A stretch of 64,000 bases of DNA from Myxococcales bacterium (GTDB taxonomy: Bacteria; Myxococcota_A; Polyangia; Fen-1088), in contig JANXXE010000218.1 of the NCBI GenBank assembly GCA_025350815.1, positions 19,574-83,573 of the forward strand, written 5' to 3'. The notes under the pieces are model-generated. The model worked only from the letters and a program-made list of their open reading frames with translations, did not search any database and had not been told where the DNA came from. Of this stretch, positions 486-47,014 are shown piece by piece. A program made the translations under genes and the position numbers. How positions within the stretch are numbered: the first letter of the stretch is position 1; every line of letters begins with the position of its first letter.

Positions 486-492
486 GTGTCGG

Positions 493-1188
493 GTGACGCC
501 CCCATCCCTCGCCTACACGCACGTCGTGTTCGACTTTGACGGAACCTTGGTCGATTCGCTGCGCACAAAGGTGTCGAACGCGGGCGAGTTATTCGCCGAA
601 CGCTACGGCGCCGACCGGGACCTGGTGGCGCGGCGCTATTACTTTCATTCCGGGATTGCACGAAGGCTGCTGTTCGAACGCATCGCCGAGGATGTCCTTG
701 CGCGCGGCTTGACCGAGACCGAATACCAGGATCTGGATCAGGTGTTTACACGTCTGAATCTGGAACGGGCCGGCGCCGCGCCGCCCTGGCCCGCGGTTCC
801 TGCGGTGCTTGCACAGCTGGCTGCGTCGGGGGTCACGATGGCGGTGTCGAGTTCAGCGCCCGAGCATGACCTGGCACCGCGCGTGCGGGCCTCAGGCCTC
901 GGGGACTTTTTCGGCCCTGTCCTTGCCTCGCGCGATGGGTTTCGCAAGGGGCCTGATCATGTCGCGTCGCTGGAAAAGCTGTGGAAAGTCGAACGCGGAC
1001 ACTTTCTCAGCGTCGGTGACGAACTGGCTGACGCGCGGCTTGCGGCTGCGGCGCGTGTTGATTGCGCGCTGGTCAGCCACACCATCACGCCCGCCGAGGC
1101 CGCCACTGGACCGTCGGAGGCGCGACCCCGCTTCATCTTGACGACCTTCGATGAACTGCTGACAATCGTCGGTTCACAAAACCCATGA
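493..1188 (+). CDS. HAD-superfamily hydrolase/phosphatase
   Basis: GTG start at 493 sits just after the upstream stop. The N-terminal VVFDFDGTLVDS (DxDGT) motif and a downstream SVGD...D motif place it in the HAD superfamily. The 391 ATG listed in the ORF track overlaps the upstream gene and is unlikely to be the start. Confidence 0.7.
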   Translation: MTPPSLAYTHVVFDFDGTLVDSLRTKVSNAGELFAERYGADRDLVARRYYFHSGIARRLLFERIAEDVLARGLTETEYQDLDQVFTRLNLERAGAAPPWPAVPAVLAQLAASGVTMAVSSSAPEHDLAPRVRASGLGDFFGPVLASRDGFRKGPDHVASLEKLWKVERGHFLSVGDELADARLAAAARVDCALVSHTITPAEAATGPSEARPRFILTTFDELLTIVGSQNP

Positions 1189-2633
1189 CCGCCACCACCG
1201 ACAGACCGATCGTCATCGCCGCGGGAACCGGTTTCGTGGTGCGGAACTACCTGCTTGGCAAGTGCCTGACCAAGCTGCAGGAACGGCACCCCGTCGTGGC
1301 GCTGTCACCCATGGCGGACAATCCCGGATTTCGCCAGGTCATGAACGAACGTGGCGTGCGCGTCGAGCCCCTGCCCGCGCCGCACGTCCACAAGTCCTGG
1401 GGCCGCGTCCGGCGCTGGCGCGGCCGCTTGCACGCGGGCTGGGTGGACAACGAAACCTGGGCATTGAAGTATTCCGCCGAAAAATATCTGGCTGCGAAAC
1501 CTGACTACAGCCCCACGCGCTTCGAAGCGTTCTACCGCGATCTGGCGCAGTGGACGGCCGCGCGCCTCGCCAGCCCGCGGACGTTGACGCTGATCGATCG
1601 CGCGGAGGATCACTATGCGCTGCAGACCGCGGACGCCGCGCAGTACCGCAAGCTGTTCGGCACCCTGCGCCCCAAGCTGGTGTTTTCACCCGCGCCGCTC
1701 ATTTCCGAGGAATGGCTGCCTATACAGGTCGCGCGGGAAATGGGCATCCCGACGGTGCTGTCCGTCTTGTCGTGGGACAATCTGTCCAGCAAGGGCCGCA
1801 TGCCCCTGCCTTGCTCGGCTTTTCTGGTCTGGAGCGAACACATGCGCCAGGAACTTCTTGCGTACTACCCCGATGTGCGCGCGGACCAGATCACGATCAC
1901 TGGCCCGCCGCAGTTCGATTTCTATTTCGATTCCGCCTTCCAGCAGACGCGCGCCGCCTTCTTCGCCTCACTGGGGCTGGATCCCGGGCGACCACTCATC
2001 GTCTACGCCGGGGTGACGCCCGGCCTGATGCCCGACGAGCCCCGGGTCGTCGAGGGCTTGCTGGCGGCCATCCGCAGCGGGGCTGTACCGGGGAACCCGC
2101 AGCTGCACCTGCGTTTGCACCCGAAGGACGGTGGCGAGCGGTATCAGGAGCTGCGTTCACGCTGGCCGGAGGTGACCTTCACCATTCCGGGACAAAGAAG
2201 CGGCGGCCAGCTGAAGAACTGGGCACCCGACAACGAAGATCTGCGGCTACTCGTGAACACCGTTCGTCACGGCGACGTTCATATCAACGTGGCGTCCACC
2301 ATGACCGTCGATGCGGCGATCATGGGGCGACCCGTGGTCAACGTGCGCTTCGACTTTCGTCCCCCGACAGCGCCGCGATCCTGGGGACTGTGTATTTACG
2401 ATCAAACCCACTACCGCCCGTTGCTCAAGACGAACGGCATGCGCGTTGCCGAAAGCCCCGAAGAACTGGTCCAACACGTGCGCACCTATTTGCAAAACCC
2501 GACGCTGGATGAGGCCGGCCGCCGCAAGATTGTCGAGCTGGTCTGCGGCAAGGTAGACGGCCACTCAGGCGAGCGAGTGGCCACAAGACTCGACGAGCTG
2601 TGCGGTGCGAGCCCCGCGCCGGGCCGGTCGTGA
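1185..2633 (+). CDS. GT-B-like polysaccharide biosynthesis protein, paralog A (family uncertain; TagF/Capsule_synth-like motifs)
   Basis: 482-aa ORF with ATGA overlap onto the HAD stop. Motifs SWDNLSSKG, GVTPGL, LRLHPKD and HGDVHINVASTM are all shared with the next gene. The protein looks soluble and Rossmann-like. The coding call is strong; the function call is weak. Confidence 0.5.
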   Translation: MTATTDRPIVIAAGTGFVVRNYLLGKCLTKLQERHPVVALSPMADNPGFRQVMNERGVRVEPLPAPHVHKSWGRVRRWRGRLHAGWVDNETWALKYSAEKYLAAKPDYSPTRFEAFYRDLAQWTAARLASPRTLTLIDRAEDHYALQTADAAQYRKLFGTLRPKLVFSPAPLISEEWLPIQVAREMGIPTVLSVLSWDNLSSKGRMPLPCSAFLVWSEHMRQELLAYYPDVRADQITITGPPQFDFYFDSAFQQTRAAFFASLGLDPGRPLIVYAGVTPGLMPDEPRVVEGLLAAIRSGAVPGNPQLHLRLHPKDGGERYQELRSRWPEVTFTIPGQRSGGQLKNWAPDNEDLRLLVNTVRHGDVHINVASTMTVDAAIMGRPVVNVRFDFRPPTAPRSWGLCIYDQTHYRPLLKTNGMRVAESPEELVQHVRTYLQNPTLDEAGRRKIVELVCGKVDGHSGERVATRLDELCGASPAPGRS

Positions 2634-4045
2634 CGGACAGAGTTCGACCGGGCGACAGAAGACCCCGGGTCGTGATGCTGGGCGCCGCCGGTTGGTCGGT
2701 GCGGAACTACCTTGCCAATCCTGGCTTCCAGGCTTTCTTGCGCGACAACGATGTAACGTTTTGGTCCCCCGCGTGGCAGGAACTGGCCAAACTGGACGCG
2801 TTCAAGGGGCGCGCGTCCTTTGCCCCCCTGTCCGTGTGGCAGCCGCAGGGCTGGCGCCGCCGGGGCCTGTCGTTCGTGCATGCCTATTACGGGTACAAGC
2901 AACAGAGTCGGAATCTGCTGCAGAAGCTTGAGATCTCTGCGGTGTCGGCCCGCCGAGCGGGCCTGTTGAAGGGGCTGTACGCGCGCGGCGTGCACCGCGG
3001 CGCCTGGCTTGGCAGCCAGGTTCTTCCGGTCTCAACGGTGGAAGCGGTCGAGAGGTTTCTGGCGGCCCACGCGCCCGGCCTGGTCGCCGAGTACGAGTCG
3101 CGTCTGCGGGCCAGCCAGCCCGACCTGATGTTTTCGACTACCCCGCAGGCCAATCACATGGAATGGCCGGCCGCCCTCGCCGCCAGACGCCTTGGGATCC
3201 CCGTCGTCGCCCAGATCTCATCCTGGGACAATCTCAGCTCGAAGGGGCACTTCGCCATCGAGTACCAGCGCTACCTCGCCTGGTCGGACGTGATGGTGCG
3301 TGACCTAATGCGGGATTTCGCAGTCGCCCGCGAGGACATCCAGGTCACGGGGGCACCGGGTTTTGATTTCTATTTCCAGCCGGAATTTCAGGAAAGCCGT
3401 GAGGCTTTTGCCGCGCGCCAGGGACTGGACCCCGCCCGGCCGATCATTCTTTACGCCGCCGTGACGCCCGGTCTGTTTCCGAACGAGCCGCACATGGTGG
3501 CCTTGCTACTGGACGCGATCCGAGCCGGCGACCTGCCCCGCGAGGCCCAGGTCCTGCTGCGCCTTCACCCCAAGGATCCCGGGACGCGCTGGCAGTCCCT
3601 TGACGGCCGTTACCCCGAGCTTCGCGCCTGCGTGCCCAACACCGCCGGCGATCTGCGCCAGTGGATTCCGGACGAAAGCATCATCCGCGACCAGGTGTCG
3701 TGCGTTCGGCACGGCGACGTGCATGTGAATGCCGCATCGACCATGATCATCGACGCCTCGATTCTCGACAGACCGGTGGTCAGCGTGGCGTTCGATGCCG
3801 TCGAACCCACCTTCTCGAAATACATTCGGGGCTATTACGACTACCCGCACCTGGTTCCGGTGGTCAGGGCGGGTGCCTCTCGTCTCGTGTCGACGGGGCC
3901 TGAGCTCATCGGCGAAATCGACAACTATCTACGCGATCCATCGCGTGATCGCGCGGGACGGAGGGCGATCGTCACCATGCAGACAGGGGATTGCGACGGC
4001 CAGGCGGCCGCGCGCGTCGCTGCGGCGCTGACGTCGATGCTATGA
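2600..4045 (+). CDS. GT-B-like polysaccharide biosynthesis protein, paralog B (tandem duplicate of 1185..2633)
   Basis: It has the same motif set (VRNYL, SWDNLSSKG, GVTPGLFPNEP, LRLHPKDPG, HGDVHVNAASTM) and matches the upstream gene along its whole length. The true start may be the GTG at 2630, giving a GTGA overlap, rather than the ATG at 2600. Confidence 0.5.
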   Translation: MRCEPRAGPVVTDRVRPGDRRPRVVMLGAAGWSVRNYLANPGFQAFLRDNDVTFWSPAWQELAKLDAFKGRASFAPLSVWQPQGWRRRGLSFVHAYYGYKQQSRNLLQKLEISAVSARRAGLLKGLYARGVHRGAWLGSQVLPVSTVEAVERFLAAHAPGLVAEYESRLRASQPDLMFSTTPQANHMEWPAALAARRLGIPVVAQISSWDNLSSKGHFAIEYQRYLAWSDVMVRDLMRDFAVAREDIQVTGAPGFDFYFQPEFQESREAFAARQGLDPARPIILYAAVTPGLFPNEPHMVALLLDAIRAGDLPREAQVLLRLHPKDPGTRWQSLDGRYPELRACVPNTAGDLRQWIPDESIIRDQVSCVRHGDVHVNAASTMIIDASILDRPVVSVAFDAVEPTFSKYIRGYYDYPHLVPVVRAGASRLVSTGPELIGEIDNYLRDPSRDRAGRRAIVTMQTGDCDGQAAARVAAALTSML

Positions 4046-4047
4046 AG

Positions 4048-5487
4048 TTACCTGACCGGAAGGTGCCGACGCCCCACGGACAGCGCCAGCCGGTCAGCGG
4101 GACTGGCCGGGCTCGGGGCCTTCTTGGGCGCAGCACCTGACAGCCCCCTTTGGGCCGCAACGAATCCCGCCAGCCCGATGCCGAACCACTGAATGTACGT
4201 GAATGCGACCGCGACCTGTGCCGCGGCCACCGATGCGAGGGTCAGGCCCAGCGCCAACCTGCCGAGGGGCCCCTGCTCGCGGCGAACCTGCCAAGCTCTC
4301 CTGATCGCGGCTATCAGGAAATACGCGAAGGCGAAGGCGGCGATAAAACCACCTTCGGCGGCGGTGCGCAGAAGCACGTTGTGGGCGCCCATTGCCTTTC
4401 CGCGCCATTTTGTGCCTAGATTTGCCTTCTCTGCAAAATTGTCAAACTCGGTGGCATAGGCACCCGCGCCGACACCCGTCATCGGCCTGTCGGTGACCAT
4501 GGCCCAAGCCACCTTCCACAAATCCAGCCGGCCCGTGAAGGCCGCGTCGGGGTCGTCTGCCACGCCGACTGTCCGCTCGATACCCCTTTCGATGTCGGCG
4601 TCGCTTAGGCCCTTGGCGCTGTAGAGTATTGCGGCGATGAAGGCCCCGGCAATTGCCAGCCTGACGAGGATTTGCTTCCCGCCTCCGCCGACGGCCATAC
4701 AAAGAACCACGATCAGCAGGGCCACGACGCTGCCGCGACAGACAGTCATGGTCGTTCCGATAGACAGCGCGACCGCAGAGCCTAGGTAAAGGAATCGCGG
4801 CCGCCCACGCGACGTGAGGCCCAGATACAGTGCCACCCCAGCCGGAACGGCGATGTGTATCGACGTATCGCCCCCAGCGAGCGTGGACTTCATGTTGCCC
4901 AGTCGCCCCGCATAGGACTCGGGAAGCAGCGCAACCAGGCAGGCCAACATGGCCATGCCACCCATCACCATTGCAGACAGGCCACGCCGCAGGGACGGCA
5001 GGTCGCGGAACAGGCACACTGGGCCCAGGTACGCCACCACGAGGCCCAGCATCGCGACGCTCGATGTGAAGCCCTCCCAGCGGTCAATTGACCACGTGAC
5101 ACTGACCATCATCCAAGCTGTCAGACCGAGAATCACTGCGACGGTCGAGTCCATCTTGCGCAACTGGGTGCGCAACCTGCCCATGTTGGTCAGCATTAGC
5201 AGCGCCACACCGTAAAAGAATGCGAGATATCTGGTGCTGCCCCACACGCGGATGAGAGGATCAATGGGAAGGGCCAGGAACAAGATGGCCTTGGCGCCTT
5301 CAGAATTGCGCGACAGAAGGTTCGCGAAGAAGACCAGATAGAGCGCCGCGGTCGCCCCCAATCCCACGTTGCTCCGCGACAGCCCGACCCCCTGTAAGAC
5401 CACGGCGGTGCCAAGAATCAGCAGAAAGGCCACCAACGCGCTGACCGGCGGTGTCTCGCTGGTGGCCGCGGGGCCAGCTTTTGCCAT
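4048..5487 (-). CDS. O-antigen ligase / Wzy-type polymerase family membrane protein
   Basis: About ten hydrophobic segments with a periplasmic loop. The Wzy_C-like signature ...GAHNVLLRTAAEGGFIAAFAF... is present. Confidence 0.65.
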   Translation of the reverse strand: MAKAGPAATSETPPVSALVAFLLILGTAVVLQGVGLSRSNVGLGATAALYLVFFANLLSRNSEGAKAILFLALPIDPLIRVWGSTRYLAFFYGVALLMLTNMGRLRTQLRKMDSTVAVILGLTAWMMVSVTWSIDRWEGFTSSVAMLGLVVAYLGPVCLFRDLPSLRRGLSAMVMGGMAMLACLVALLPESYAGRLGNMKSTLAGGDTSIHIAVPAGVALYLGLTSRGRPRFLYLGSAVALSIGTTMTVCRGSVVALLIVVLCMAVGGGGKQILVRLAIAGAFIAAILYSAKGLSDADIERGIERTVGVADDPDAAFTGRLDLWKVAWAMVTDRPMTGVGAGAYATEFDNFAEKANLGTKWRGKAMGAHNVLLRTAAEGGFIAAFAFAYFLIAAIRRAWQVRREQGPLGRLALGLTLASVAAAQVAVAFTYIQWFGIGLAGFVAAQRGLSGAAPKKAPSPASPADRLALSVGRRHLPVR

Positions 5488-6249
5488 TTAGGCCAATGCC
5501 CCCCGGCAAAGAACCATCAGTCCGCATCCGCCAACAGTATGGGCGGCAGCGTCGGGCGAAAGGAGAAACGCGCGGCGCCGCAGCTTGTCCACGACGCGCC
5601 CACGAGCGGTCGTCGACGGCCTCCTCCCCTCGGCCGACGAGGAGGTGTATTCCCACCCCAGGATCTCGAGGCCACAACCCCGGAGTAGGCGAAGCGCGGA
5701 CCAGCGGTGGTAGAAGTGCAGGTGCCCCACTTCTACGCGTTGCTGTTCCCGAAGGCCACGAAGCCGGGCCCAGACGCTTTCCTCCACGGGAATATGAAGG
5801 GCGATGAAGCGCGCCTTTTTGACGGCTTCGCGCAAAAAATCGTCGGGACGGACCAGGTGCTCGATCACGTCAAATAGCATCAACAGATCCGCCGCCGGGG
5901 CATCGACCAAAGTCCCCTGTATGACCCGCAACGAAGGGAACAGTCGCCCCGCAACTTCAACAGCGTCCCCAGCGGGATCTACACCCACCGCGTCCACGAT
6001 CAGGCCATGGCCAGCCAGGATCCGGATCGCTGCACTCAGAGCGGCGCCGCTGCCACAGCCGAGATCTACCAGACGGATCGCTGACGATGACCGTCCGAGA
6101 CACGCCAGAATCGTCCGCTCGTGTTCGAGAGCAACCCCGAGCTTTTCCGCTTTCCAGGGACCATCCTCTGCGTGCCAGGTCCCTCCCGTGTTGTCGAGAT
6201 AGGTCCCGTCGACGTATCCCTGCGGCAGGCAGTCGTCCACCGGCGGCAT
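5488..6249 (-). CDS. class I SAM-dependent methyltransferase
   Basis: Motif I VDLGCGSG and a DVIEH motif are present. The gene abuts the Wzy gene. Confidence 0.65.
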   Translation of the reverse strand: MPPVDDCLPQGYVDGTYLDNTGGTWHAEDGPWKAEKLGVALEHERTILACLGRSSSAIRLVDLGCGSGAALSAAIRILAGHGLIVDAVGVDPAGDAVEVAGRLFPSLRVIQGTLVDAPAADLLMLFDVIEHLVRPDDFLREAVKKARFIALHIPVEESVWARLRGLREQQRVEVGHLHFYHRWSALRLLRGCGLEILGWEYTSSSAEGRRPSTTARGRVVDKLRRRAFLLSPDAAAHTVGGCGLMVLCRGALA

Positions 6250-6259
6250 TGTGCCATCG

Positions 6260-8641
6260 TCAGGGTTTCCGCGCCAGCGACTGAAGTTGTTTCCGGGCCC
6301 TTACGACAAGGTCCGGCCGGCCGACCTCTTCTGCGTACTGGGCCAGGGCCTCGAGCGGTGACGGCCACCGGGGGTCAAGGTCGCTCGCTGTCTGAAATGC
6401 CAGAAGTGCGGCCGCGGTCTCCCCCATACCCTTCCAGATCCATGCCGCGCTAAGCTGGACCTGCGCCGCCTGCTCGGCCGTGGCCACGAGCCGCGCCCGT
6501 TCCAGGGCCTCTCGGGTTGTCTTTCTGTCTCGGGCGCCGCCAGCAGCCTGGGCGAGACCCAACCAATATCGGAGCTCGCCGGGCTTGGCGTCGGTCGCCT
6601 TGCCGATCTCCGTAACGGCGTCCTTGAAGCGCTGTTCACCAAGCGCCACACGCCCCCGCAGGAAGGCCGCTTCCGTCGGATTCACGGCGCCGAGCTCGTC
6701 CGCGACGCTTGCCAGGTCGTGCAGGTTCCCGGTGGCCTGGGCTCGCTGGGACAGGCGCATCAACGCCCTTTCGTTGCGCGGTTGCACTTCGAGCAACGCC
6801 CGATCGGCATCGTCCGCCAGGGAGCGCTTGCCCATCACGTCGAGGACCCGAACCAGCGCCTCCAGGCGTTCCCCCGGGTGGTCCGTCCCCACCGTCAGCC
6901 GGCTAAGTAGGTCGATGCGCGGATAAGAACGGACTATTTCTTGGATAATTTCATCCGGCTGCTCGGCGATTGTCGGCGCGCAGTCAAGCGCCAGCCGATA
7001 CTCGACCAGTGCCTGCTGGTGGTGTCCGGTCGCCCGGAACCACCGCGCGGTAAGCCGATGCGCTTCGAAGGAACGGGGATACAGGGTCAGGACGCGATTG
7101 ATCCAAGGTAAGGGTCGCCCGAGGGGCCGGTCACCGGCCATCAGACCGGCTTCCCGTTCGGCCGCCAGCAAGGGCAAAAAGTAGTCCGACGGATGATCCC
7201 GCAGTACCTGCTGCATCGTGCTGGTGATCCGATCGGGATCGTCCGAGCCCAGGGCCTGGCGCACATGCGCCTCCGCGGAAGGCATCTGTCTGCCCACGCC
7301 CAGGGCGAATCCAACCACGCCGATGGCCACAGACACCGCAATTAGGGCGCGCGGCATGCGGACGCCCGCGCTGGCATCACGCCGCGCGCGAGTGGCGAGG
7401 AGAGCGAGGGCGGGGATCGCGACACCTAGCACTTCGAGATTGAAGTCGAACAGGTTATGGAGAAACAGTGCCAGCATCCCACTGGCAACCGCCCAGTCGA
7501 TGGCACTGCCACGGCGAGCGAACAGGGCGCGCAGGCCATAAAGCCACCCGAGGACGAACAAGCCACCGACGATGAGACCGTAGTCCAGGACCAGCTGTAG
7601 CGGAACGTTCTCGGCATGCGTGAACGTGCGCATCATGGCCAGACGCTGATAGCGGGTATAGGCGAAGGGGAACGCCCCGCGGCCCCCGCCCACCAACGGA
7701 AAATCCGCCACGAACTGCCCCGCGGGACGCCAGATGTCGACTTTCACGGTACTGCGATCCGCAAACTCGTCGATGAAGAACCCGTTCCAGAAAATCCCCA
7801 TCAACAGCAAGGTCCCGATCAGCGCGAAGGGAACGACACTGGGGGCAACCCTCTTGTCGAGCATGCGGACCGCAAGGGGCAGCACGATCGCCACGATCAC
7901 CGCCACGGTACCGGCACGCGATCGAGCCAGCAGCCCGGCGGTCAGAATCAAGACTGTGGCCGCCGCCCACAACGCCCGCATTCTGGCGTCTCGGCTCTCC
8001 AGCGTCAGGCCCACGGCGGCAGCGCCGGTCAGCGCGAGAAATCCCGCCTGGTGATTCCCGTTGATGAAAGGACCCGCGACCTGGGTCGCACCGTGGGTCG
8101 AAAACAGGCCGTACAGGGTGTCGCTGGCGCCCGCCGCCAGGTGAAAAAGACCGACCAACGCCACACAAACGCCGGCCGCCGCCACGATCTTCAGGACCCG
8201 CTGGCGCGAACGTGCCGCGACCAAGTCACGGGCATTCTGATAGGCAAGCAGGGCAATTGCCAGCTTGGCCGCCTCAAGCCATGTGGCGGGCTGGTCCAGG
8301 CTGATGCTCATCCAGTCTGATCGCTGGCCAACCCCCAGGGGGCGCAAGGCAGCGCTTTGTGTCTCCCATGACGCGGGACTAATCAGGCGAAGCAAGCCGG
8401 GCGGCAGTGGCAACGCCTGAAAAACGGTGAACAAGCAAAGCGCGAAAAGTGCGCCCGCCAGGAGATCGAGGCCCGCCCGTTCGGACCGAGGAACCAGGTA
8501 GCGAGAGCCTGCGGTCAGCATCACGACCAACCCAACCGCGGCAATCACGGGGATATGCACCGTCCCCGCGAGCAACGGCACGGCGATGATGGTGCCGCCG
8601 ATCAGGAAGTATCGAATGGTCGAAAACGGAAGCGACATCAC
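6260..8641 (-). CDS. O-antigen ligase (Wzy_C) domain fused to C-terminal TPR-repeat domain
   Basis: The N-terminal ~430 aa are polytopic with the FTHAENVPLQLVLDYGLIVGG Wzy_C motif. The C-terminal ~350 aa are TPR-like helical repeats. Confidence 0.65.
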   Translation of the reverse strand: MMSLPFSTIRYFLIGGTIIAVPLLAGTVHIPVIAAVGLVVMLTAGSRYLVPRSERAGLDLLAGALFALCLFTVFQALPLPPGLLRLISPASWETQSAALRPLGVGQRSDWMSISLDQPATWLEAAKLAIALLAYQNARDLVAARSRQRVLKIVAAAGVCVALVGLFHLAAGASDTLYGLFSTHGATQVAGPFINGNHQAGFLALTGAAAVGLTLESRDARMRALWAAATVLILTAGLLARSRAGTVAVIVAIVLPLAVRMLDKRVAPSVVPFALIGTLLLMGIFWNGFFIDEFADRSTVKVDIWRPAGQFVADFPLVGGGRGAFPFAYTRYQRLAMMRTFTHAENVPLQLVLDYGLIVGGLFVLGWLYGLRALFARRGSAIDWAVASGMLALFLHNLFDFNLEVLGVAIPALALLATRARRDASAGVRMPRALIAVSVAIGVVGFALGVGRQMPSAEAHVRQALGSDDPDRITSTMQQVLRDHPSDYFLPLLAAEREAGLMAGDRPLGRPLPWINRVLTLYPRSFEAHRLTARWFRATGHHQQALVEYRLALDCAPTIAEQPDEIIQEIVRSYPRIDLLSRLTVGTDHPGERLEALVRVLDVMGKRSLADDADRALLEVQPRNERALMRLSQRAQATGNLHDLASVADELGAVNPTEAAFLRGRVALGEQRFKDAVTEIGKATDAKPGELRYWLGLAQAAGGARDRKTTREALERARLVATAEQAAQVQLSAAWIWKGMGETAAALLAFQTASDLDPRWPSPLEALAQYAEEVGRPDLVVRARKQLQSLARKP

Positions 8642-8695
8642 CTGACCACGCGTGCACCAACCCCAGACGTTGCGGGCGCCGCACCCGCGCGATCG

Positions 8696-10936
8696 TTAGT
8701 TTGCGGCGACAGTCGGTTCGTCCGCCCGATAGGAATAACCATATGTGCGGTAATAGTCGTACCGGTAATACGATCCCCTGCTGAAATCCGCATCATTGAG
8801 GACCACGCCGAAAATTCGTGAGCCCAGTCGGCGCAACTGGCGGGATCCGTGCCGCAGCGACGCCTTGTGCGTGCGTCCGTGCCGGGCCACCAAAATGGTG
8901 CCGTCGACGACGCCTGACAGGATCGCAGCATCGGTAACCGCGCCGAGCGGCGGGCTGTCAAGCACCACCACGTCGAACATTTCGTTAAGCTGGGCCAGCA
9001 ATTCCATGAACCGGGTCGAGTGCAACAACTCGGCGGGATTAGGCGGGATGGGTCCCGCCAGGGCAACGGCGAGGTTCGGAACCGTCGTCTGCTCGACAAC
9101 ATCCGCGGGCACGCACTGCCCCGCCAGAACGTCGGTGAGACCGCGGGCGCCCTGCCCGGGGAAGATCTTGTGCAAGCGCGGCCGGCGAAGGTCCGTATCG
9201 ACGATGATGACCCGCTTGCCGCTCTGGGCGAGGATGATGGCCAGCGTGGTGGCCACGAAGGTCTTGCCCTCACTGGGGCCGGGGCTGGTGACCAGCAGTC
9301 GCTTCATGCTGGTGTCGGCCGACATGAACAGAAGGTTGGTGCGGATGGAACGCGCGGCTTCCGCAATGATCGAATGCGGATGTGTCGACGCGATCAGATC
9401 GAAGCCGTTTCGGTCCAGGGACTCCCGCAGCCCGTCGGATTCGCCTCCGCTTCCGTACTTGCTGTACTTCGTTCTCGCCAGAAACGTTTCGCGCCCCGCC
9501 AGCACGCCCAGAAGCGGCGCCCCTGACTCTTGCTGCGCGTCCTCGTAGCTGCGCACGGTGAAATCCAGAAATTCGATCAGGAACGTCAATGCAATCCCGA
9601 TCATGAAACCCAGCATCGCGGAGACGGCGATGATCATGCCGACCCGGGGACTGATCGGACCTGTCGGCCGCAGTGCCAGGTCCAGCAGCGAGATATTGTT
9701 GAAGTGCAGATAGCGCGCGAGATCGGTCTCCTTGCTGCGCGCGAGGACCAGGTCGAACAGCTTTGCGTTCTGCTCTTTTTCGCGCTCGAGCTTGTTGTAG
9801 TCGATCGCCAGCAGGCTCAGTTCGACGCCACGCTTATGCACATCGTCCAGCAGGACCTTCAGATTCTTCTCATTGCGAACCTTGGCCTGATACTCGGTTT
9901 CAATGCCGGTCATGAGGGACTTGACGTGTCCCTCGATTTGACCCTGCGTCTCCTTGATCTGCGCCTCGATGTTGCGAACGTTGGGATGTGACGGCCCGTA
10001 TTTGCTTTGAACCGCACTCAGGTCGATCAGTTCCTTGGCGTACTGGCTTTTCAGATTTTGCAACAGCATGTCGGCGGAGCGCTTGGTCCAACCGAGATCA
10101 TGTTCCTGAGTCTGCTTGAAGGCTTCGGTCAGAGCACCCTTTTCGGCCTCAAGCTGCAAGCGCTCGGTCTTGGTCTTCGTCAGAACCTCCGAGATGCTCG
10201 TCAGCTCGGTGCTGATGAGGTTCTGGCGGTCTTCCAGAGACACGGAAAGGACATTCCTGTCCTTCTTGAACTCGTACAGCTTTTGCTCGGACGCGGTGAC
10301 GGTCTCACGCAGCTTGTTCAGCTGCTCGGTCAACCAGCCGAGCGCGCCCTCCGTCGACAGCATGGCGCGTTCGAGGTTTCGGTCGATGAAGGCCTGCGCG
10401 ATCGTGTTGGACAGAAGTTCGGCCACTTCCGGATCGGTGTGCTTGATGTAGATGTTGACGAGGCGCGTGTCCTTGACCGGTTCGACGCGAATAGCCGCCT
10501 GCAGGAACTGCGCGGAATCGAGAATCGAATATTCGACCGGACCCGAGCCGGCCGGGGCGTTCCAGAAGCGCGGATCCTTGTGCAGATTCAGACGCTTGAC
10601 GACGACCTCAGCAAGGTCGCGGCTTTCCAGGATGCGGTACTGGGTCTCGAAATACTCCCGGTTGCTCCAAAAGGTCCCGGCGCCAATGTCGACGACTTCG
10701 TTGCCTTCGCGGCGGCCAAGAACGTTCGGAGCGCGCGGTTCAATCTGAATTGTGCACTTGGTCTGATAGATCTTCGGCTGCTTGAGGGCGTAGAAGAATC
10801 CGCCCGACGTCGCCACAGCCACGCACAGCAGAACCAGCCACTTGCGCTTCCAGGGGACCTTCAGTGCGCGGGTGAGGTTGACGACGGACTCTTCGTCCTG
10901 CGCCTGAATCGTTGCCGCCTCGTCGGTAGTTGCCAA
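8696..10936 (-). CDS. polysaccharide co-polymerase / tyrosine autokinase (Wzc/BY-kinase family)
   Basis: N-terminal Wzz-like domain with a long coiled coil and a second TM. C-terminal P-loop with Walker A SPGPSEGKT, Walker B VVVLDSPP and a Tyr-rich tail RGSYYRYDYYRTYGYSY. Confidence 0.85.
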   Translation of the reverse strand: MATTDEAATIQAQDEESVVNLTRALKVPWKRKWLVLLCVAVATSGGFFYALKQPKIYQTKCTIQIEPRAPNVLGRREGNEVVDIGAGTFWSNREYFETQYRILESRDLAEVVVKRLNLHKDPRFWNAPAGSGPVEYSILDSAQFLQAAIRVEPVKDTRLVNIYIKHTDPEVAELLSNTIAQAFIDRNLERAMLSTEGALGWLTEQLNKLRETVTASEQKLYEFKKDRNVLSVSLEDRQNLISTELTSISEVLTKTKTERLQLEAEKGALTEAFKQTQEHDLGWTKRSADMLLQNLKSQYAKELIDLSAVQSKYGPSHPNVRNIEAQIKETQGQIEGHVKSLMTGIETEYQAKVRNEKNLKVLLDDVHKRGVELSLLAIDYNKLEREKEQNAKLFDLVLARSKETDLARYLHFNNISLLDLALRPTGPISPRVGMIIAVSAMLGFMIGIALTFLIEFLDFTVRSYEDAQQESGAPLLGVLAGRETFLARTKYSKYGSGGESDGLRESLDRNGFDLIASTHPHSIIAEAARSIRTNLLFMSADTSMKRLLVTSPGPSEGKTFVATTLAIILAQSGKRVIIVDTDLRRPRLHKIFPGQGARGLTDVLAGQCVPADVVEQTTVPNLAVALAGPIPPNPAELLHSTRFMELLAQLNEMFDVVVLDSPPLGAVTDAAILSGVVDGTILVARHGRTHKASLRHGSRQLRRLGSRIFGVVLNDADFSRGSYYRYDYYRTYGYSYRADEPTVAAN

Positions 10937-11047
10937 TCAGCCTCCCTGGCATCTTGGTCTATATCACAGGTTGCAGGCCCTGACTAAATGCGGCGTCGTA
11001 GATTTCGGCCCCGGGTGGGGCCTTCAGACCTCGAAGAGGCGGGCTGG

Positions 11048-12073
11048 CTACCGCCGCAGAGTCCGCCATCCGTGCCGGCGTCCCGACCTCCAGCGCTCGA
11101 CAACATCCTCGTAGACCTTGCGCAGACGCGCGGCGCTGACGTCGACCGAAAACGCGGCGCGGATCCGCTCGGGCCCGTTCGAGCGCCGGCCGGCCTCCAG
11201 CACGTCCTTGAGCGCGGCGGCCAGGGACTCGGGCTCGGGGCTGGCCACCAGACCGGGCGTGACGCCCTTCAGAACGTGCTCGACGTCACCAACCGGGACC
11301 GACACCACGGGCACGCCGCAGGCGACGGCCTCCTTGACGACGTTGGGCGAGCCCTCGTGCTGGCTGGTCAATAGCAGGCAGTCAGCGGCGTTCATGTGCA
11401 CCGGCATCAGCTCTGGCGGCACTTGCTCGATGGTCGCGAGACGGGCGGGAAGGCCCAGTTCCGCCAGACGGCGGACGGCCGCCTGGGCGCGGTCGAAACG
11501 CTTGATGGTGCGGTGCCGGGACGCCCCGAACAGCACGACGGTCTCCGCGGGATCCCAGCCAAGCTGCCTGCGGCATGCCGCCTTGTCGAGGGGGCGAAAG
11601 GCAGCCGTGTCGACACCCGCCGGAATGACGTACGCCCGCTGGCGGTCGCGTGCAAGCAGCAGCCCCTGCCGTAACTGTTCGGACCGCGCCACGATGGCGT
11701 CGGCGTTGGGCGCGGCCAGCTGAGAAAACACCGCTGCCAGCGCACCCACGACCTTTTCAACCGGCGGATCCCGCCGCGCCGGCCCCAGCAAGTCCGAGCC
11801 ACCAAAGGTCAGCACCAGCGGCACGGGGCAGCCGAGCGCCGAGGCGAACGCCCCGACGGAACCGAAGTAGACGTTGACCACGTCGGGGCGGCTGGCAGCG
11901 ACGTGGTCGCGAAAGGCGGCCCAGTCCTTGTGTGGCGTCCGCCGGTAGGCCGTGGCGTGCTCCTCCACATCCAGACCCAGCGCCCGCAGCGCCAGCACTT
12001 CACGCCGCACGAAGATGCCGGCGAAGGGTGAATCGGGCCGGGGCCAGATGTTCGACACAGCGAGGACTTTCAA
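11048..12073 (-). CDS. glycosyltransferase family 4 (GT-B)
   Basis: EGSPNVVKEAVACGVPVV matches the GT4 C-terminal E-x7-E region. The probable TTG start at 12073 (LKVLAVSNIWP) avoids a 44-nt overlap with the downstream gene; the track ORF starts at 12142. Confidence 0.7.
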   Translation of the reverse strand: MKVLAVSNIWPRPDSPFAGIFVRREVLALRALGLDVEEHATAYRRTPHKDWAAFRDHVAASRPDVVNVYFGSVGAFASALGCPVPLVLTFGGSDLLGPARRDPPVEKVVGALAAVFSQLAAPNADAIVARSEQLRQGLLLARDRQRAYVIPAGVDTAAFRPLDKAACRRQLGWDPAETVVLFGASRHRTIKRFDRAQAAVRRLAELGLPARLATIEQVPPELMPVHMNAADCLLLTSQHEGSPNVVKEAVACGVPVVSVPVGDVEHVLKGVTPGLVASPEPESLAAALKDVLEAGRRSNGPERIRAAFSVDVSAARLRKVYEDVVERWRSGRRHGWRTLRR

Positions 12074-12098
12074 GGCGCGGTCCTGAAGCTGGGCGGAG

Positions 12099-12824
12099 TT
12101 ACGGCCGGTCGCGCAGCCGCAGAAAGTATTCCGCCAGGACAAGATCCGCTTCCGTGTCGATGTTGGCGGAACGCTCGACCGGCATGATGTGGCCCAGACA
12201 GCGCGCGCCCTTGAAGGAATTCTTGTTCATAAGAACGTCGCGACGGGTGGCGTACAGGGCGCCGTTGACCATGTACACCTTGGGCAGGCTTTGGCGCGGC
12301 GGGTTCTCGATCTCGGACGGCTCATAGTCCAGCAGCATCCCGTCGGCGAACTTCTTCATCTTTCGCGGGTGCCAGTTGTCGACGTCGATGACACTGATGA
12401 TGCCGTCGGCCCCCTCGGCCGCCAGACGTCCGAGCGCCGTGACGAGATCCTCGGCTGACCGCAGCGGCGTCGTCGGCTGCAGCATGGCAACGTAGTCATA
12501 CGGACTGCCGGTCAACGCCTCCATCTGTTTGACGGCGTGCTGAATGGTCGGGACCGCCAGCGCGCCATCCGTGGCCAGATCGGCCGGCCGCAGGAACGGC
12601 ACCTCGGCGCCCGCCTCAAGGGCAATGTCGCGGATGCGCGGATCGTCCGTCGACACGACGACGTTGGCGAACATGCCCGACTTCTGGGCGGCCTCGACGG
12701 TGTACGCCAGCAGCGGGCGGCCACCCAGTGGCCTGATGTTTTTGCCCGGCACCCCCTTGGAGCCGCCGCGCGCCGGGATCACCGCCAAATTGCGCGGGCG
12801 TCCCCCCGTCGGGTGGACCGTCAT
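12099..12824 (-). CDS. acylneuraminate (nonulosonic acid) cytidylyltransferase, NeuA/CTP_transf_3 family
   Basis: N-terminal AVIPARGGSKGVPGKNIRPLGGRPLLAYT is the canonical CMP-NeuAc/CMP-Kdo synthetase motif. Start ATGA-overlaps the NeuB-like gene. Confidence 0.8.
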   Translation of the reverse strand: MTVHPTGGRPRNLAVIPARGGSKGVPGKNIRPLGGRPLLAYTVEAAQKSGMFANVVVSTDDPRIRDIALEAGAEVPFLRPADLATDGALAVPTIQHAVKQMEALTGSPYDYVAMLQPTTPLRSAEDLVTALGRLAAEGADGIISVIDVDNWHPRKMKKFADGMLLDYEPSEIENPPRQSLPKVYMVNGALYATRRDVLMNKNSFKGARCLGHIMPVERSANIDTEADLVLAEYFLRLRDRP

Positions 12825-13780
12825 GACAGGGCCTTGTCCTCCCAGTTGTAGATGAAGCCGCCCGGTACGGGCGCCTGACTTGCAAAGCGGCCCCGGTAAT
12901 AGTCCCGGTTCAGCAATTCTTCAGGCGACAGCGCGCGCACGGGCGAGCCGCGCATGGCAGAAGCCTCGGGGATCTCGCGCGCCACGTAGTCGGCGATTTC
13001 GTTGCGCGGGGCGCGGGCCCAACGGACAAGCTCGGCCAGCTGGCCCGGATCGATCGACACCGGACCATCCCTGGTGAGGTCGGGCGGCAACACGCGAAAG
13101 TGCCGTTCCACCACATCCGCCCCCATGGCCAGCGCCCCGATGGACGCCTTCAGTCCGTCGCGGGCCACCAGGCTGTGGTCGGAAAATCCCACACTGGGCG
13201 TGAACTGGCGCAGCCATTCCAGACGGGCCAGATGCATCTGATCGAGGGGCGTGGGGTAAATGGTCACGCAGTGAAGGAAGGTGAAGTTGGTCGGCGCCAG
13301 CACCTTCGCCGCAGCCGCAATCTCCTCGTCGAAGGTGGCGCCGGTGGAAACATAGATGTGCTTGAACCGGCCGACCAATTGGCGCAGCAACGGCAAGCTG
13401 GCGCAGTCGTAGCTCGGTACCTTGATCTCATCGTAGCCCAGCTTGACCACGTCATCGACGGCGGCGCGGCTGAAGACCGACGTCAGGGCGCCCGTGCCCC
13501 AGCGCTTGCATTCCTCGCGGAAGAACGCCTCGTCGTCGACCGACAACTCCAGCGGCTTCAGTCGATCATATTCGGCCGCGTAGGGCCGCTTGATTGCTTT
13601 CTTCGCGCCGCCCTCGACGATCCCTTCTTCAAACCTTTCCCGGCGTGTCAGCTCGCGCACGCGGATGGTCTGCACCTTGGCGAAATCGGCGCCAGCCTCG
13701 GCGACCGCATGAATCATCTCGCTTAGCAGCGTGCGGCCGCCACCGTGGTTCTGACAAAGCTCTGCGATTACCTTGGCCAA
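12821..13780 (-). CDS. N-acetylneuraminate synthase family protein (NeuB-like nonulosonic acid synthase, no SAF domain)
   Basis: IAELCQNHGG ... AGADFAKVQ matches the IAEIGxNHNG/KFQ core of the NeuB TIM barrel. At 319 aa it is shorter than classical NeuB. Confidence 0.7.
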   Translation of the reverse strand: MAKVIAELCQNHGGGRTLLSEMIHAVAEAGADFAKVQTIRVRELTRRERFEEGIVEGGAKKAIKRPYAAEYDRLKPLELSVDDEAFFREECKRWGTGALTSVFSRAAVDDVVKLGYDEIKVPSYDCASLPLLRQLVGRFKHIYVSTGATFDEEIAAAAKVLAPTNFTFLHCVTIYPTPLDQMHLARLEWLRQFTPSVGFSDHSLVARDGLKASIGALAMGADVVERHFRVLPPDLTRDGPVSIDPGQLAELVRWARAPRNEIADYVAREIPEASAMRGSPVRALSPEELLNRDYYRGRFASQAPVPGGFIYNWEDKALS

Positions 13781-13882
13781 CGAGTTCCTCCCGCCTTGAC
13801 GGCCCCCTGCCCATACTACGATCCCGTGCCGCGGGGCAAGGCGCCGCGTCGACGAAATATGCTAAAAGGCGCTACGCTACCG

Positions 13883-15103
13883 ATGCGCATTCTGCTGCTG
13901 ACCCAGTATTTTCCGCCCGAGATCGGGGCGCCGCAGCGACGGCTGTCCGATCTGGTGACGCGCCTTGCGACCATGGGACACGAGTTGTCGGTGCTGACCG
14001 CCATGCCGAACTACCCAGGCGGCGTGGTGCAGGAGGCCTATCGTGGACGCGTTTTCGCGCGCGACGACTGGAACGGTGTGCCGGTCGCCCGTTCGTGGAT
14101 CCTGGCCAGCCCGCGGCCGGGCATGGCGCCCAAACTGGCGACGTATTTTTCGTTCACGCTGTCGTCGCTGGTTGCGGGCCTGCTGGATGGCACCCCCGTC
14201 GACATCGTACTGACGGAATCGCCGCCGCTGTTCTTGGGGCTGACGGGAATTGCACTGGCCCGGCGCAAACGCGCAGCCTTCGTGTTCAACGTCGCTGACC
14301 CATGGCCGAAAGCCGCGATCGAGCGCGGTATGCTGAAGCACCCGGCGGCGATAGCCGCAGCCACCGGCCTTGAAGAATGGATCTATTCGAAGGCCGCCCT
14401 GGTGCTGACGCAATCCGAATCCATGCAGCGGGACATTGCCTCGCGCACGGGCCATCCCCACGTCGTGCATTTTCCCAACGGCATCGATCTGAACCTTTTC
14501 GGGCCGGCAAAGGCGGATGCCGGAACGCTGGCCGAGCTGGGCCTGGCGGGCAAGTTCGTCGTTGGCTACGCGGGACTGCATGGTCCGGGACAGGGCCTGG
14601 ACGTGATTGTGAATGCGGCGGCCGGACTGGCCGACCTGCCGGATGTTTGTTTTGCGCTGTTCGGTGACGGGCCTGACAAAGATCGCCTGCAAAAGGCGGC
14701 GGCGCACCTGCCCAACGTGAAGTTTTTCCCGCCACGGCCGCCCAACACCATTCCGGCGCTGACGGCCGCCTGGTCCGCCGGCGCCGTAACCTTGCGCGAC
14801 GGTGCGTCGTTCGAAATGTGCGTGCCGTCGAAACTGTTCGAGGCCATGGGCTCCGCAATTCCCGTTGTGATGGCGGCCGACGGCGAAGCCGCCGACATCG
14901 TACGCGACTGCGGCTGCGGGCTGGCGGTTCGGGCGGGCGATGCCGCGGGCTTCGGCGCCGCCGTGCGGAAGCTGCACGCGGACGCGGGCCTGCGTCGCAA
15001 GCTCGGCGCGCAGGGGCGACAGGCCACGGAACAAAGGTACGATCGCCAGCGCATCGCCACCGAGGTAGAAAAGTTTCTCGAGCAAGCAAGGCTGGACGCG
15101 TGA
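13883..15103 (+). CDS. glycosyltransferase family 4 (WcaI-like)
   Basis: N-terminus MRILLLTQYFPPEIGAPQRRL. C-terminal GT4 motifs are present. An alternative ATG lies at 13859, and the 13745 track start is unlikely. The gene is divergent from the NeuB-like gene. Confidence 0.75.
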   Translation: MRILLLTQYFPPEIGAPQRRLSDLVTRLATMGHELSVLTAMPNYPGGVVQEAYRGRVFARDDWNGVPVARSWILASPRPGMAPKLATYFSFTLSSLVAGLLDGTPVDIVLTESPPLFLGLTGIALARRKRAAFVFNVADPWPKAAIERGMLKHPAAIAAATGLEEWIYSKAALVLTQSESMQRDIASRTGHPHVVHFPNGIDLNLFGPAKADAGTLAELGLAGKFVVGYAGLHGPGQGLDVIVNAAAGLADLPDVCFALFGDGPDKDRLQKAAAHLPNVKFFPPRPPNTIPALTAAWSAGAVTLRDGASFEMCVPSKLFEAMGSAIPVVMAADGEAADIVRDCGCGLAVRAGDAAGFGAAVRKLHADAGLRRKLGAQGRQATEQRYDRQRIATEVEKFLEQARLDA

Positions 15104-15768: not shown

Positions 15769-15793
15769 CACAAACAAAGGATTTGAAAGCGTG

Positions 15794-17877: not shown

Positions 17878-17885
17878 CCCGCGGA

Positions 17886-22091: not shown

Positions 22092-22114
22092 CGCAGTTCC
22101 TGTTCGACCGGCAG

Positions 22115-22711: not shown

Positions 22712-22774
22712 TGCCCCGGATTGTAGTCCGTCCAGCCAGTCGTCGCAATGTCGCGGCAATGTCGCGGGGCTCCT

Positions 22775-47013: not shown

Positions 47014-47014
47014 T

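What the first reader, a model, noticed from the sequence alone, without database searches (positions are those of the whole stretch)
6260..8641. O-antigen-ligase (Wzy_C) domain fused to a ~350-aa TPR domain
A polytopic Wzy_C membrane domain is followed in the same ORF by a soluble TPR array, and a second unfused Wzy_C protein is encoded 800 bp away. The TPR module could dock the ligase/polymerase to the co-polymerase Wzc, which is adjacent, or to the Glt-like TPR machinery encoded 18 kb downstream.
Basis: seen in the sequence. Interest (0 to 1): 0.5.

Follow-up and report, generated by a model that had tools for sequence, protein, structure and literature searches.

The report
Polysaccharide polymerase-like enzyme with periplasmic TPR arm
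A real, conserved membrane enzyme of the O-antigen ligase/polymerase superfamily carries one extra membrane helix and a ~340-residue TPR arm predicted to lie in the periplasm; it looks like the sugar-chain polymerase of a myxobacterial exopolysaccharide pathway with its docking scaffold built in, a common but unstudied design.

Summary

Helix count and the positive-inside rule place the TPR in the periplasm. It therefore cannot reach the cytoplasmic kinase domain of Wzc.

At the position of the catalytic His of ligases, the fused family has an invariant Glu (145/145), as described for inverting Wzy polymerases. The unfused neighbour (4048..5487) keeps the His. The fused gene lies next to Wzc in 5 of 10 loci, and next to a short OPX exporter in 2. 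Its membrane-proximal TPR repeats are its best conserved part (79% between orthologues, against 57% for the membrane domain).

Best reading (about 0.5): a Wzy-type polymerase whose periplasmic TPR docks it to the Wzc/OPX export machinery, with the unfused paralogue acting as a ligase-like transferase. A protein O-oligosaccharyltransferase role is not excluded. This is a new variant of a known kind, of moderate interest.

The parts
6260..8641 (-). Whole gene: Wzy_C membrane domain, TM13 and periplasmic TPR. It is 793 aa from GTG 8641; the likely start is ATG 8638, giving 792 aa. The stop codon is 6260-6262.
7394..8638 (-). WaaL-fold 12-helix membrane domain (aa 1-415, numbered from the ATG)
7556..7960 (-). 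Pfam Wzy_C (PF04932) match
   Evidence: coordinates checked
7607..7789 (-). Large periplasmic loop between TM9 and TM10 (aa 284-344). It holds K299, G317xG319-R320-G321, and the T-H341-A-E343-N344 motif. The E343 codon is 7610-7612.
   Evidence: E343 is present in 145/145 family members, K299 in 139/145 and R320 in 130/145. E343 aligns with the invariant His of His-type Wzy_C proteins. Codon checked.
7292..7354 (-). Extra 13th transmembrane helix (aa 429-449), which carries the chain back to the periplasmic side
   Evidence: AlphaFold helix 429-449. A hydrophobic segment is present in 144/145 relatives. K+R averages 3.96 in the 15 aa upstream and 2.04 in the 15 aa downstream.
6263..7291 (-). 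Periplasmic TPR superhelix (aa 450-792; 20 helices, about 10 repeats)
6959..7228 (-). Membrane-proximal TPR repeats (aa 471-560) with near-invariant H482, P483, R515, H527, Q542 and E546. This is the best conserved part of the protein.
8696..10936 (-). Wzc, a PCP-2a co-polymerase with a fused tyrosine autokinase, immediately upstream in the same operon
5488..6249 (-). Methyltransferase gene between the two Wzy_C genes. It starts 10 bp after the stop of the fused gene.
4048..5487 (-). Unfused Wzy_C paralogue (479 aa) with the canonical A-H369-N motif (His codon 4381-4383). It is ligase/oligosaccharyltransferase-like.
22115..22759 (-). Short OPX exporter (214 aa; Poly_export+SLBB; EpsY-like) of the same polysaccharide locus
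26386..27720 (-). Candidate outer-membrane beta-barrel partner of the short OPX. It has a signal peptide, a C-terminal ...GVTY and a weak EpsL match.
   Evidence: inference

Best explanation
The gene encodes the Wzy-type polymerase of a Wzx/Wzy-dependent pathway in a Myxococcota genome that makes a polysaccharide containing nonulosonic acid. Residues 1-415 form a 12-helix WaaL/SEDS-like GT-C domain. Its periplasmic face carries conserved basic residues (R241, K299, R320), inferred to hold the undecaprenyl-pyrophosphate donor, and an invariant Glu (E343), inferred to activate the acceptor hydroxyl. A 13th helix returns the chain to the periplasm, where about 10 TPR repeats start directly at the membrane surface. 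The highly conserved proximal repeats are inferred to bind an invariant partner or to extend the catalytic cleft. The variable distal repeats are inferred to reach into the periplasmic cage of the Wzc co-polymerase encoded next door, and towards the short OPX/beta-barrel exporter. The polymerase would thus carry its own docking and chain-guiding scaffold. The unfused His-type paralogue 772 bp away would be a ligase-like enzyme that transfers the finished glycan to a different acceptor. Shown here: the fold, the architecture, the conservation, the Glu/His difference and the gene linkage. Inferred: the topology (strongly), polymerase activity, docking, and the role of the paralogue.
Against: No activity or interaction was tested. 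The Glu-versus-His rule is a published hypothesis drawn from family comparisons, not a proven discriminator. The link to the WaaL catalytic His rests on motif agreement and on profile alignment to His-type relatives; direct alignments to E. coli WaaL were not significant. The unfused paralogue is the most divergent gene of the cluster (38% between the window and L001), which is itself typical of Wzy polymerases. Five of the ten loci examined are not next to Wzc. No Wzx flippase lies in the 64-kb window. Periplasmic TPR domains fused to lipid-linked-sugar transferases are elsewhere associated with protein acceptors (WsfB, TfpW).
Confidence: 0.5

Rival explanations
1. The fused protein is a protein O-oligosaccharyltransferase or other ligase. 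The Wzy_C domain would transfer the undecaprenyl-pyrophosphate-linked glycan to periplasmic or exported proteins, which the TPR domain recruits. The unfused paralogue would then be the pathway's Wzy polymerase.
For: The S-layer O-oligosaccharyltransferase WsfB is described as Wzy_C plus a C-terminal TPR motif (PMC2943079). TfpW is a pilin oligosaccharyltransferase with a periplasmic TPR domain. The closest structural matches of the TPR part include the OGT TPR domain. The unfused paralogue is the fastest-evolving gene of the cluster (38% identity), as expected of a Wzy. An unfused Wzy_C gene lies near the fused gene in 3 of 10 loci.
Against: The fused family has an invariant Glu where ligases and the other Wzy_C-TPR fusions examined have His, and the unfused partners in all three loci keep the His. 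No PglL_A or Wzy_C_2 domain was detected. No recurrent candidate acceptor gene lies next to it. It sits between the OPX and Wzc genes where no second Wzy_C gene is visible.
Confidence: 0.2
2. Both Wzy_C proteins are polymerases. They would form two different linkages or serve two different polymers made by the same locus, and the TPR would distinguish the one that feeds the Wzc/OPX export route.
For: The locus holds duplicated functions: two CMP-sugar synthetase-like genes, two DegT aminotransferases and two BFO_1060-family glycosyltransferases. Both Wzy_C genes diverge faster than their neighbours.
Against: The unfused paralogue keeps the His motif typical of ligases and gives a weak match to an exosortase-associated putative O-glycosylation ligase (TIGR03097, E 6e-10, below cut-off). 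Only one PCP and one OPX lie in the window.
Confidence: 0.15
3. The TPR domain binds the polysaccharide itself, or peptidoglycan, rather than Wzc/OPX. It would act as a built-in processivity or chain-length device, or as an anchor, by analogy with the TPR scaffolds of synthase-dependent systems.
For: Half of the loci lack an adjacent Wzc gene. TPR domains of synthase-dependent systems escort polymers across the periplasm (PMC9601211). The proximal repeats carry conserved polar residues (H482, R515, H527, Q542, E546).
Against: The net charge of the domain varies widely across the family (-11 to +36), so there is no common electrostatic signature. The distal repeats are poorly conserved. Matches to PgaA and PrsT are far below their cut-offs.
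Confidence: 0.1
4. The fusion is an artefact: a frameshift or assembly error joined two genes.
For: None found.
Against: The coding signal is uniform along the ORF. Hundreds of independent full-length homologues from different sources have the same architecture, and a syntenic orthologue shares 57% identity.
Confidence: 0.01

Closest known systems
WaaL O-antigen ligase (CAZy GT121; PDB 7TPG/7TPJ)
   Different: Glu replaces the catalytic His. There is a 13th helix and a 340-aa periplasmic TPR domain. The gene lies in a Wzc/OPX exopolysaccharide operon, not an LPS core locus. Sequence similarity is too low for HMMER to detect.
Inverting Wzy polymerases of CAZy clan GT-C1 (GT125-GT129) and SEDS polymerases (PMC10920833)
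   Different: That paper makes no mention of TPR among these families (0 occurrences of 'TPR' or 'tetratricopeptide'). Membership of a specific GT family could not be tested with the tools available.
WsfB/PglL-type protein O-oligosaccharyltransferases
   Same: Wzy_C domain. WsfB is reported to carry a C-terminal TPR motif (PMC2943079).
   Different: The catalytic His is not conserved here. No PglL_A or Wzy_C_2 domains are present. No adjacent acceptor gene is evident. The organism is a Gram-negative myxobacterium and the gene sits in a Wzc/OPX context.
TfpW (P. aeruginosa pilin arabinosyl/oligosaccharyltransferase) and other GT-C enzymes with TPR domains
   Same: A polytopic lipid-linked-sugar transferase followed by a periplasmic C-terminal TPR domain.
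   Different: TfpW is modelled on ArnT, a different GT-C subclass, uses a DDX motif and sits next to pilA. It is not homologous in the membrane domain.
Periplasmic TPR scaffolds of synthase-dependent secretion (AlgK, PelB, BcsC, PgaA)
   Same: A TPR superhelix in the periplasm of a polysaccharide export pathway that ends in an outer-membrane beta-barrel (PMC9601211). A candidate beta-barrel and a short OPX are encoded in the window.
   Different: Here the TPR is fused to the inner-membrane polymerase, not to the porin or to a lipoprotein. Sequence matches to PgaA and PrsT are far below their cut-offs.

Membership tests
Wzy_C / O-antigen ligase-like superfamily (Pfam PF04932) | Match to the Pfam model above its gathering score | tested here: met
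   50.9 bits against a cut-off of 31.7, aa 228-362
Wzy_C / O-antigen ligase-like superfamily (Pfam PF04932) | WaaL/SEDS-type GT-C membrane fold | tested here: met
WaaL O-antigen ligase (GT121) | Conserved His in the large periplasmic loop that activates the acceptor (His-313 in 7TPG; PMC10920833) | tested here: not met
   The aligned position is Glu in 145/145 family members. H341, two residues upstream, is present in only 123/145.
WaaL O-antigen ligase (GT121) | Twelve transmembrane helices, with the chain ending after TM12 (12 helices: PMC2932511, PMC10920833) | tested here: not met
   Thirteen helices plus a 343-aa tail
WaaL O-antigen ligase (GT121) | Two Arg residues that bind the pyrophosphate of the lipid carrier | tested here: inconclusive
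   R241 (140/145) and R320 (130/145, otherwise mostly K) are conserved on the periplasmic face. Their equivalence to Arg-191 and Arg-265 was not shown. The alignment of R241 to E. coli R215 is not significant.
WaaL O-antigen ligase (GT121) | Ligation of O-antigen to lipid A-core | not testable with these tools
   Requires genetics or biochemistry
Wzy polymerase, inverting clan GT-C1 | Conserved Asp/Glu aligned with the ligase His (PMC10920833) | tested here: met
   E343 is invariant and aligned with the His of the AHN motif
Wzy polymerase, inverting clan GT-C1 | Encoded within a Wzx/Wzy-dependent locus together with PCP and OPX genes | tested here: met
   Wzc is adjacent and a short OPX lies in the window. 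The same linkage is seen in L001, L003, L005 and L006. However, no Wzx gene lies in the window.
Wzy polymerase, inverting clan GT-C1 | Polymerisation of lipid-linked repeat units | not testable with these tools
   Requires a mutant phenotype or an in vitro assay
PglL/WsfB-type O-oligosaccharyltransferase | Catalytic His in the Wzy_C loop (PglL; from my own knowledge, not checked here) | tested here: not met
   Glu at that position
PglL/WsfB-type O-oligosaccharyltransferase | PglL_A or Wzy_C_2 accessory domains (PglL type; from my own knowledge) | tested here: not met
   Pfam gives no such match at E<=0.01
PglL/WsfB-type O-oligosaccharyltransferase | C-terminal TPR motif (WsfB; PMC2943079) | tested here: met
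Tetratricopeptide repeat (TPR) domain | Tandem helix-turn-helix repeats that form a superhelix and match TPR profiles | tested here: met
   On the single sequence the match is below the Pfam cut-off. The family profile matches consensus TPR proteins at E 1.6e-52. Homologues carry TPR_19/TPR_14/TPR_16 hits. The model has 20 helices, and Foldseek gives probability 1.0 to CTPR and OGT.
Synthase-dependent TPR export scaffold (PgaA/BcsC/PelB/AlgK) | Match to the family models, or fusion to or partnership with the outer-membrane porin | tested here: not met
   The PgaA model scores 18.5 bits against a cut-off of 366 and PrsT scores 32 against 312. The TPR is fused to the inner-membrane enzyme.

The most novel reading that the evidence does not exclude
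This family could be a hybrid secretion design. A Wzx/Wzy-type polymerase would carry its own periplasmic TPR conduit, like the TPR scaffolds of synthase-dependent systems. That conduit would plug into the Wzc cage and the composite short-OPX/beta-barrel translocon. Where GltG/GltC/GltE-like genes are syntenic (the window and Kofleriaceae locus L003), it might couple polymer export to a Glt/Nfs-like trans-envelope machine, as the Exo and Nfs systems cooperate in Myxococcus spore-coat assembly.
Probability: 0.15. Interest if true: 0.7.

Novelty: new variant of a known kind. Interest (0 to 1): 0.45.

Why it matters
How Wzy polymerases meet their co-polymerase and hand the growing chain to the exporter is still largely unresolved. 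The only structural hint reported is that WzyE sits inside the Wzz ring (PMC10030265, as reviewed in PMC12004945). A large natural family in which the polymerase-like enzyme carries a covalently attached periplasmic scaffold would be a convenient handle for mapping that interface. The scaffold is genetically linked to Wzc and OPX, and its best conserved segment could be the contact surface.

The paired Glu-type (fused) and His-type (unfused) paralogues in one operon also give a natural test of the proposed rule that separates polymerases from ligases within the Wzy_C superfamily. Both are currently annotated simply as 'O-antigen ligase family protein'.

Tried and rejected
- **Scans of species-representative genomes.** Two scans, with the single protein and with a four-sequence alignment, found no relatives. 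Taxonomy therefore rests on named relatives (Kofleriaceae and Pseudenhygromyxa, both Myxococcota/Polyangia) and on the myxobacterial AgmX/PglI tail domain in a neighbouring gene.
- **Exact look-up of the window protein's own contig.** It failed.
- **Sequence searches of the PDB.** Searches with the membrane domain, its family profile and the unfused paralogue gave nothing. Only the fold search found WaaL.
- **Foldseek with the full-length model.** The results were swamped by TPR proteins, so a second model of aa 1-455 was made.
- **The afdb50 library.** It was not available.
- **Direct profile alignment to E. coli K-12 WaaL.** It was not significant. The link to the ligase His is therefore indirect.
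- **Literature searches.** No paper on this family was found. The only statements on Wzy_C plus TPR concern WsfB/PglL.
- **Readings rejected.** A frameshift artefact. A cytoplasmic TPR that docks the Wzc kinase domain. A common electrostatic signature for glycan binding, since net charge ranges from -11 to +36.
- **A conserved unknown partner gene.** The no-Pfam genes next to the fused gene are homologous only between L004 and L010.
Full report
**1. The observation**

The ORF at 6260..8641 on the minus strand is exactly as reported: 793 codons from a GTG. An ATG one codon later gives a 792-aa product identical to a protein already in NCBI (P0001). All residue numbers below count from that ATG.

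Pfam finds Wzy_C at aa 228-362 (E 1.9e-13, above the gathering score) and only a sub-threshold TPR_2 hit. The TPR nature of the last ~340 residues is nevertheless secure:
- A profile of 14 full-length homologues matches consensus TPR proteins and the OGT TPR domain in the PDB at E 1.6e-52 to 1e-22.
- Many homologues carry several TPR Pfam families.
- The AlphaFold model (mean pLDDT 83.5, pTM 0.74) shows 20 antiparallel helices from residue 451 to 789.
- Foldseek returns CTPR and OGT TPR structures at probability 1.0.

GC content by codon position keeps the same pattern over the whole ORF, and the other two frames are full of stops.

The neighbours are also as described:
- Wzc (Wzz+GNVR+P-loop kinase) lies at 8696..10936, 54 bp upstream.
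- A methyltransferase lies at 5488..6249.
- A second, unfused Wzy_C protein lies at 4048..5487. All of these are on the minus strand with tiny gaps.

**2. The fusion is real and common**

An exhaustive HMMER search of 1.84 billion cluster representatives found 5,701 proteins at E<=0.001 and 567 at E<=1e-30. Nearly all of the best 150 are 760-890 aa and align from end to end, and 145 of them are at least 700 aa. Named relatives come from Kofleriaceae and Pseudenhygromyxa, both Myxococcota, class Polyangia. A neighbouring gene carries the myxobacterial AgmX/PglI tail domain. A 57% identical orthologue sits in a syntenic cluster in GCA_025353565.1: NeuB, CMP-sugar synthetase, GT4, Wzc, Wzy_C-TPR, then a second Wzy_C. 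The frameshift that would refute the finding is therefore excluded.

**3. Anatomy**

The helices are TM1-12 in a WaaL-like order, with the large loop (aa 284-344) between TM9 and TM10. A short basic linker follows (TRARRDASAGVRMPR), then a 13th helix (aa 429-449) that runs straight into the first TPR helix.

WaaL of P. aeruginosa was mapped experimentally to 12 TM segments, with the functionally critical His in the periplasmic loop between TMS 9 and 10 (PMC2932511). [quoted passage not shown] Four helices (TM10-13) follow the catalytic loop here, so the C-terminal domain ends on the same side as that loop, the periplasm.

The positive-inside rule agrees. In 145 family members, the loops assigned to the cytoplasm hold 7.7 K+R in 42 alignment columns, while the three short periplasmic turns hold 0.12 in 15. 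TM13 is present in 144/145. It is preceded by 3.96 K+R and followed by 2.04 in the 15-residue flanks, with upstream greater in 111 sequences and smaller in 17. This is a strong inference, not a measurement. It means the TPR cannot touch the cytoplasmic kinase domain of Wzc. Only the periplasmic part of Wzc is within reach.

**4. Polymerase or ligase?**

Family-wide invariant or near-invariant residues lie on the periplasmic face:
- the PLP motif after TM3 and N193/N195 before TM6;
- S240-R241 between TM7 and TM8;
- K299, G317xG319-R320-G321, E343-N344 and D398.

The decisive detail is the motif T-H341-x-E343-N344 at the end of the large loop. Profile-profile alignment with the unfused paralogue (probability 92%), and with a profile of 13 unfused Wzy_C proteins (probability 100%, E 1.4e-45, 416 columns), puts E343 on the invariant His of their H-A-H-N motif. 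E. coli K-12 WaaL has H-L-H-N at the corresponding place. That His is the essential H338 according to my own recollection of the literature. The direct alignments to E. coli WaaL are not significant.

E343 is Glu in 145/145 members, while H341 is not invariant (123/145). The unfused partners in the window, L001 and L004 all keep the His. So do the more distant unfused Wzy_C proteins and three other, unrelated-looking Wzy_C-TPR fusions (P0172, P0179, P0178/P0187).

The CAZy survey of these enzymes (PMC10920833) reports that O-antigen ligases have a conserved His proposed to activate the acceptor. [quoted passage not shown] On this criterion the TPR-fused protein looks like a polymerase and its unfused neighbour like a ligase or oligosaccharyltransferase. 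The criterion is a published hypothesis, so this is supporting evidence and not proof.

**5. Context**

The window carries a polysaccharide locus from about 0.4 to 26 kb. It includes:
- the end of a ManC-like gene, a HAD hydrolase and two BFO_1060-family glycosyltransferases;
- the two Wzy_C genes, the methyltransferase, Wzc and GT4 enzymes;
- NeuB, two CMP-sugar synthetase-like genes, two DegT aminotransferases, WbqC and a UDP-GlcNAc 2-epimerase;
- a short OPX protein of 214 aa and a PglF-like dehydratase.

This is a Wzx/Wzy-type pathway for a glycan containing nonulosonic acid. No Wzx flippase and no other polytopic protein lies in that part of the window.

In nine other loci holding family members:
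- The fused gene is directly next to Wzc in L001, L003, L005 and L006. In L003 and L006 it lies between a ~205-aa OPX gene and Wzc, with no other Wzy_C gene in the 15-22 kb held.
- An unfused Wzy_C gene lies nearby in L001 and L004.
- L004 and L007-L010 are not next to Wzc, although several lie among glycosyltransferase genes.

**6. Pattern of divergence**

Between the window and L001, identities are as follows:

| Protein or segment | Identity |
|---|---|
| Wzc | 82% |
| NeuB | 85% |
| CMP-sugar synthetase | 85% |
| GT4 enzymes | 68-73% |
| Fused protein, overall | 57% |
| Membrane domain | 57% |
| Catalytic loop | 51% |
| TM13 and linker | 40% |
| Proximal TPR (aa 471-560) | 79% |
| Distal TPR | 53% |
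| Unfused paralogue | 38% |

The proximal repeats are at least as conserved as the membrane domain in two other orthologue pairs as well. Across 145 members the top-residue frequency is 0.43 for the proximal repeats, 0.41 for the membrane domain and 0.30 for the distal repeats. H482, P483, R515, H527, Q542 and E546 are near-invariant. A catalytic part that changes with the sugar unit, joined to a segment that stays fixed, is what one expects if that segment contacts a conserved partner or forms part of the catalytic cleft.

**7. Mechanism proposed, with the inferred steps marked**

Repeat units flipped to the periplasmic leaflet are joined by the Wzy_C domain. R241, K299 and R320 hold the pyrophosphate of the lipid carrier and E343 acts as the base (inferred from the alignments and from PMC10920833). 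TM13 places about 10 TPR repeats in the periplasm (inferred from topology). The proximal repeats bind the invariant partner, and the distal repeats extend into the space enclosed by the Wzc periplasmic domain, towards the short OPX/beta-barrel exporter (inferred from gene linkage and the conservation pattern).

This fits the current picture in which WzyE and the nascent chain sit within the Wzz lumen (PMC10030265, as reviewed in PMC12004945). The His-type paralogue would attach the product to another acceptor (inferred). I put this reading at about 0.5.

**8. Rivals**

- **(a) Protein O-oligosaccharyltransferase.** The TPR would recruit acceptor proteins, by analogy with WsfB (PMC2943079), TfpW and OGT. 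The unfused, fastest-evolving paralogue would be the polymerase. The Glu/His pattern, the position inside Wza-X-Wzc triads and the lack of a recurrent acceptor gene speak against this, but it is not excluded (about 0.2).
- **(b) Both proteins are polymerases** (about 0.15).
- **(c) The TPR binds glycan or peptidoglycan rather than Wzc/OPX** (about 0.1). The widely varying net charge and the weak matches to PgaA and PrsT give it little support.
- **(d) Artefact.** Refuted.

**9. Comparison with what is known, and novelty**

The protein belongs to the Wzy_C superfamily and has the WaaL fold. It fails two defining features of WaaL ligases: the catalytic His, and a 12-helix chain that ends after TM12. 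It meets the sequence-level features proposed for inverting Wzy polymerases.

The Wzy_C-plus-TPR architecture is already visible in databases: JGI names some proteins 'O-antigen ligase/tetratricopeptide (TPR) repeat protein'. It is also mentioned for WsfB. I found no study of this Glu-type, Wzc-linked myxobacterial family in six literature searches. The CAZy survey of these enzymes contains no occurrence of 'TPR' or 'tetratricopeptide'. I therefore rate it a new variant of a known kind, of moderate interest (0.45).

The most novel reading still open is a hybrid between Wzy-dependent and synthase-dependent secretion designs, possibly tied to the syntenic Glt/Nfs-like genes. I give that about 0.15.

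Noticed in passing
window 22115..22759 (-) and 26386..27720 (-): A short OPX protein (214 aa; Poly_export+SLBB; EpsY-like) lies near a 444-aa secreted protein. The latter has a C-terminal ...GVTY, no Pfam match and a weak EpsL match. Together they look like the composite OPX/beta-barrel translocon described for Myxococcus (PMC9601211, PMC9603273).
   Followed up: partly
window 28566..37322 (-); L003 1..6398: A GltG-like protein (NF033760, E 9.5e-57, below cut-off; AgmX/PglI tail domain) lies beside three TPR proteins of 417, 1188 and 764 aa. Homologues of the GltG-like protein (32% identity) and of the 417-aa TPR protein (32%) lie directly upstream of Pkinase-Wza-Wzy_C-TPR-Wzc in a Kofleriaceae contig, next to a comparably sized 1171-aa TPR gene. 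A partial Glt/Nfs-like gene set therefore seems linked to this export module.
   Followed up: partly
window 1185..2633 (+) and 2600..4045 (+): Two adjacent paralogous glycosyltransferases of the BFO_1060 family are present, but no counterpart was found in the part of the syntenic cluster that L001 covers. With NeuB, two CMP-sugar synthetase-like genes, two DegT genes, WbqC and a 2-epimerase, they point to a glycan containing nonulosonic acid.
   Followed up: partly
window 1..64000: No Wzx/MOP flippase and no initiating phosphoglycosyl transferase was found in the window. The only other polytopic proteins are the FHIPEP protein and an MFS transporter. L001 has a Bac_transf gene next to the syntenic genes.
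   Followed up: partly
window 40675..42942 (+): A full-length FHIPEP (FlhA/SctV-type export gate) gene (E 1.7e-223) sits between Obg and an M16 peptidase, in what appears to be a myxobacterial genome. Its system was not examined.
   Followed up: no
proteins P0172, P0179, P0178/P0187: Other Wzy_C-TPR fusions of 665-945 aa keep the ligase-type His motif (AHD/AHN/AHE). Wzy_C-TPR fusions therefore seem to include at least two kinds with different catalytic residues.
   Followed up: partly
L004 12373..13611 and L010 7352..8677: In the Pseudenhygromyxa-type subclade, a 412-441-aa protein with no Pfam match (60% identical between the two loci) follows the fused gene with overlapping stop and start codons. 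It is a possible dedicated partner.
   Followed up: partly
window 4048..5487 (-): The unfused Wzy_C paralogue gives a weak match to TIGR03097, a putative O-glycosylation ligase associated with exosortase A. The OPX, Wzc and TPR genes of the window also give sub-threshold matches to XrtA/PEP-CTERM locus models. No exosortase-like polytopic protein lies in the window.
   Followed up: partly
window 61876..63783 (+): A 635-aa protein with a caspase (Peptidase_C14) domain lies at the far end of the window and is unrelated to the polysaccharide locus.
   Followed up: no
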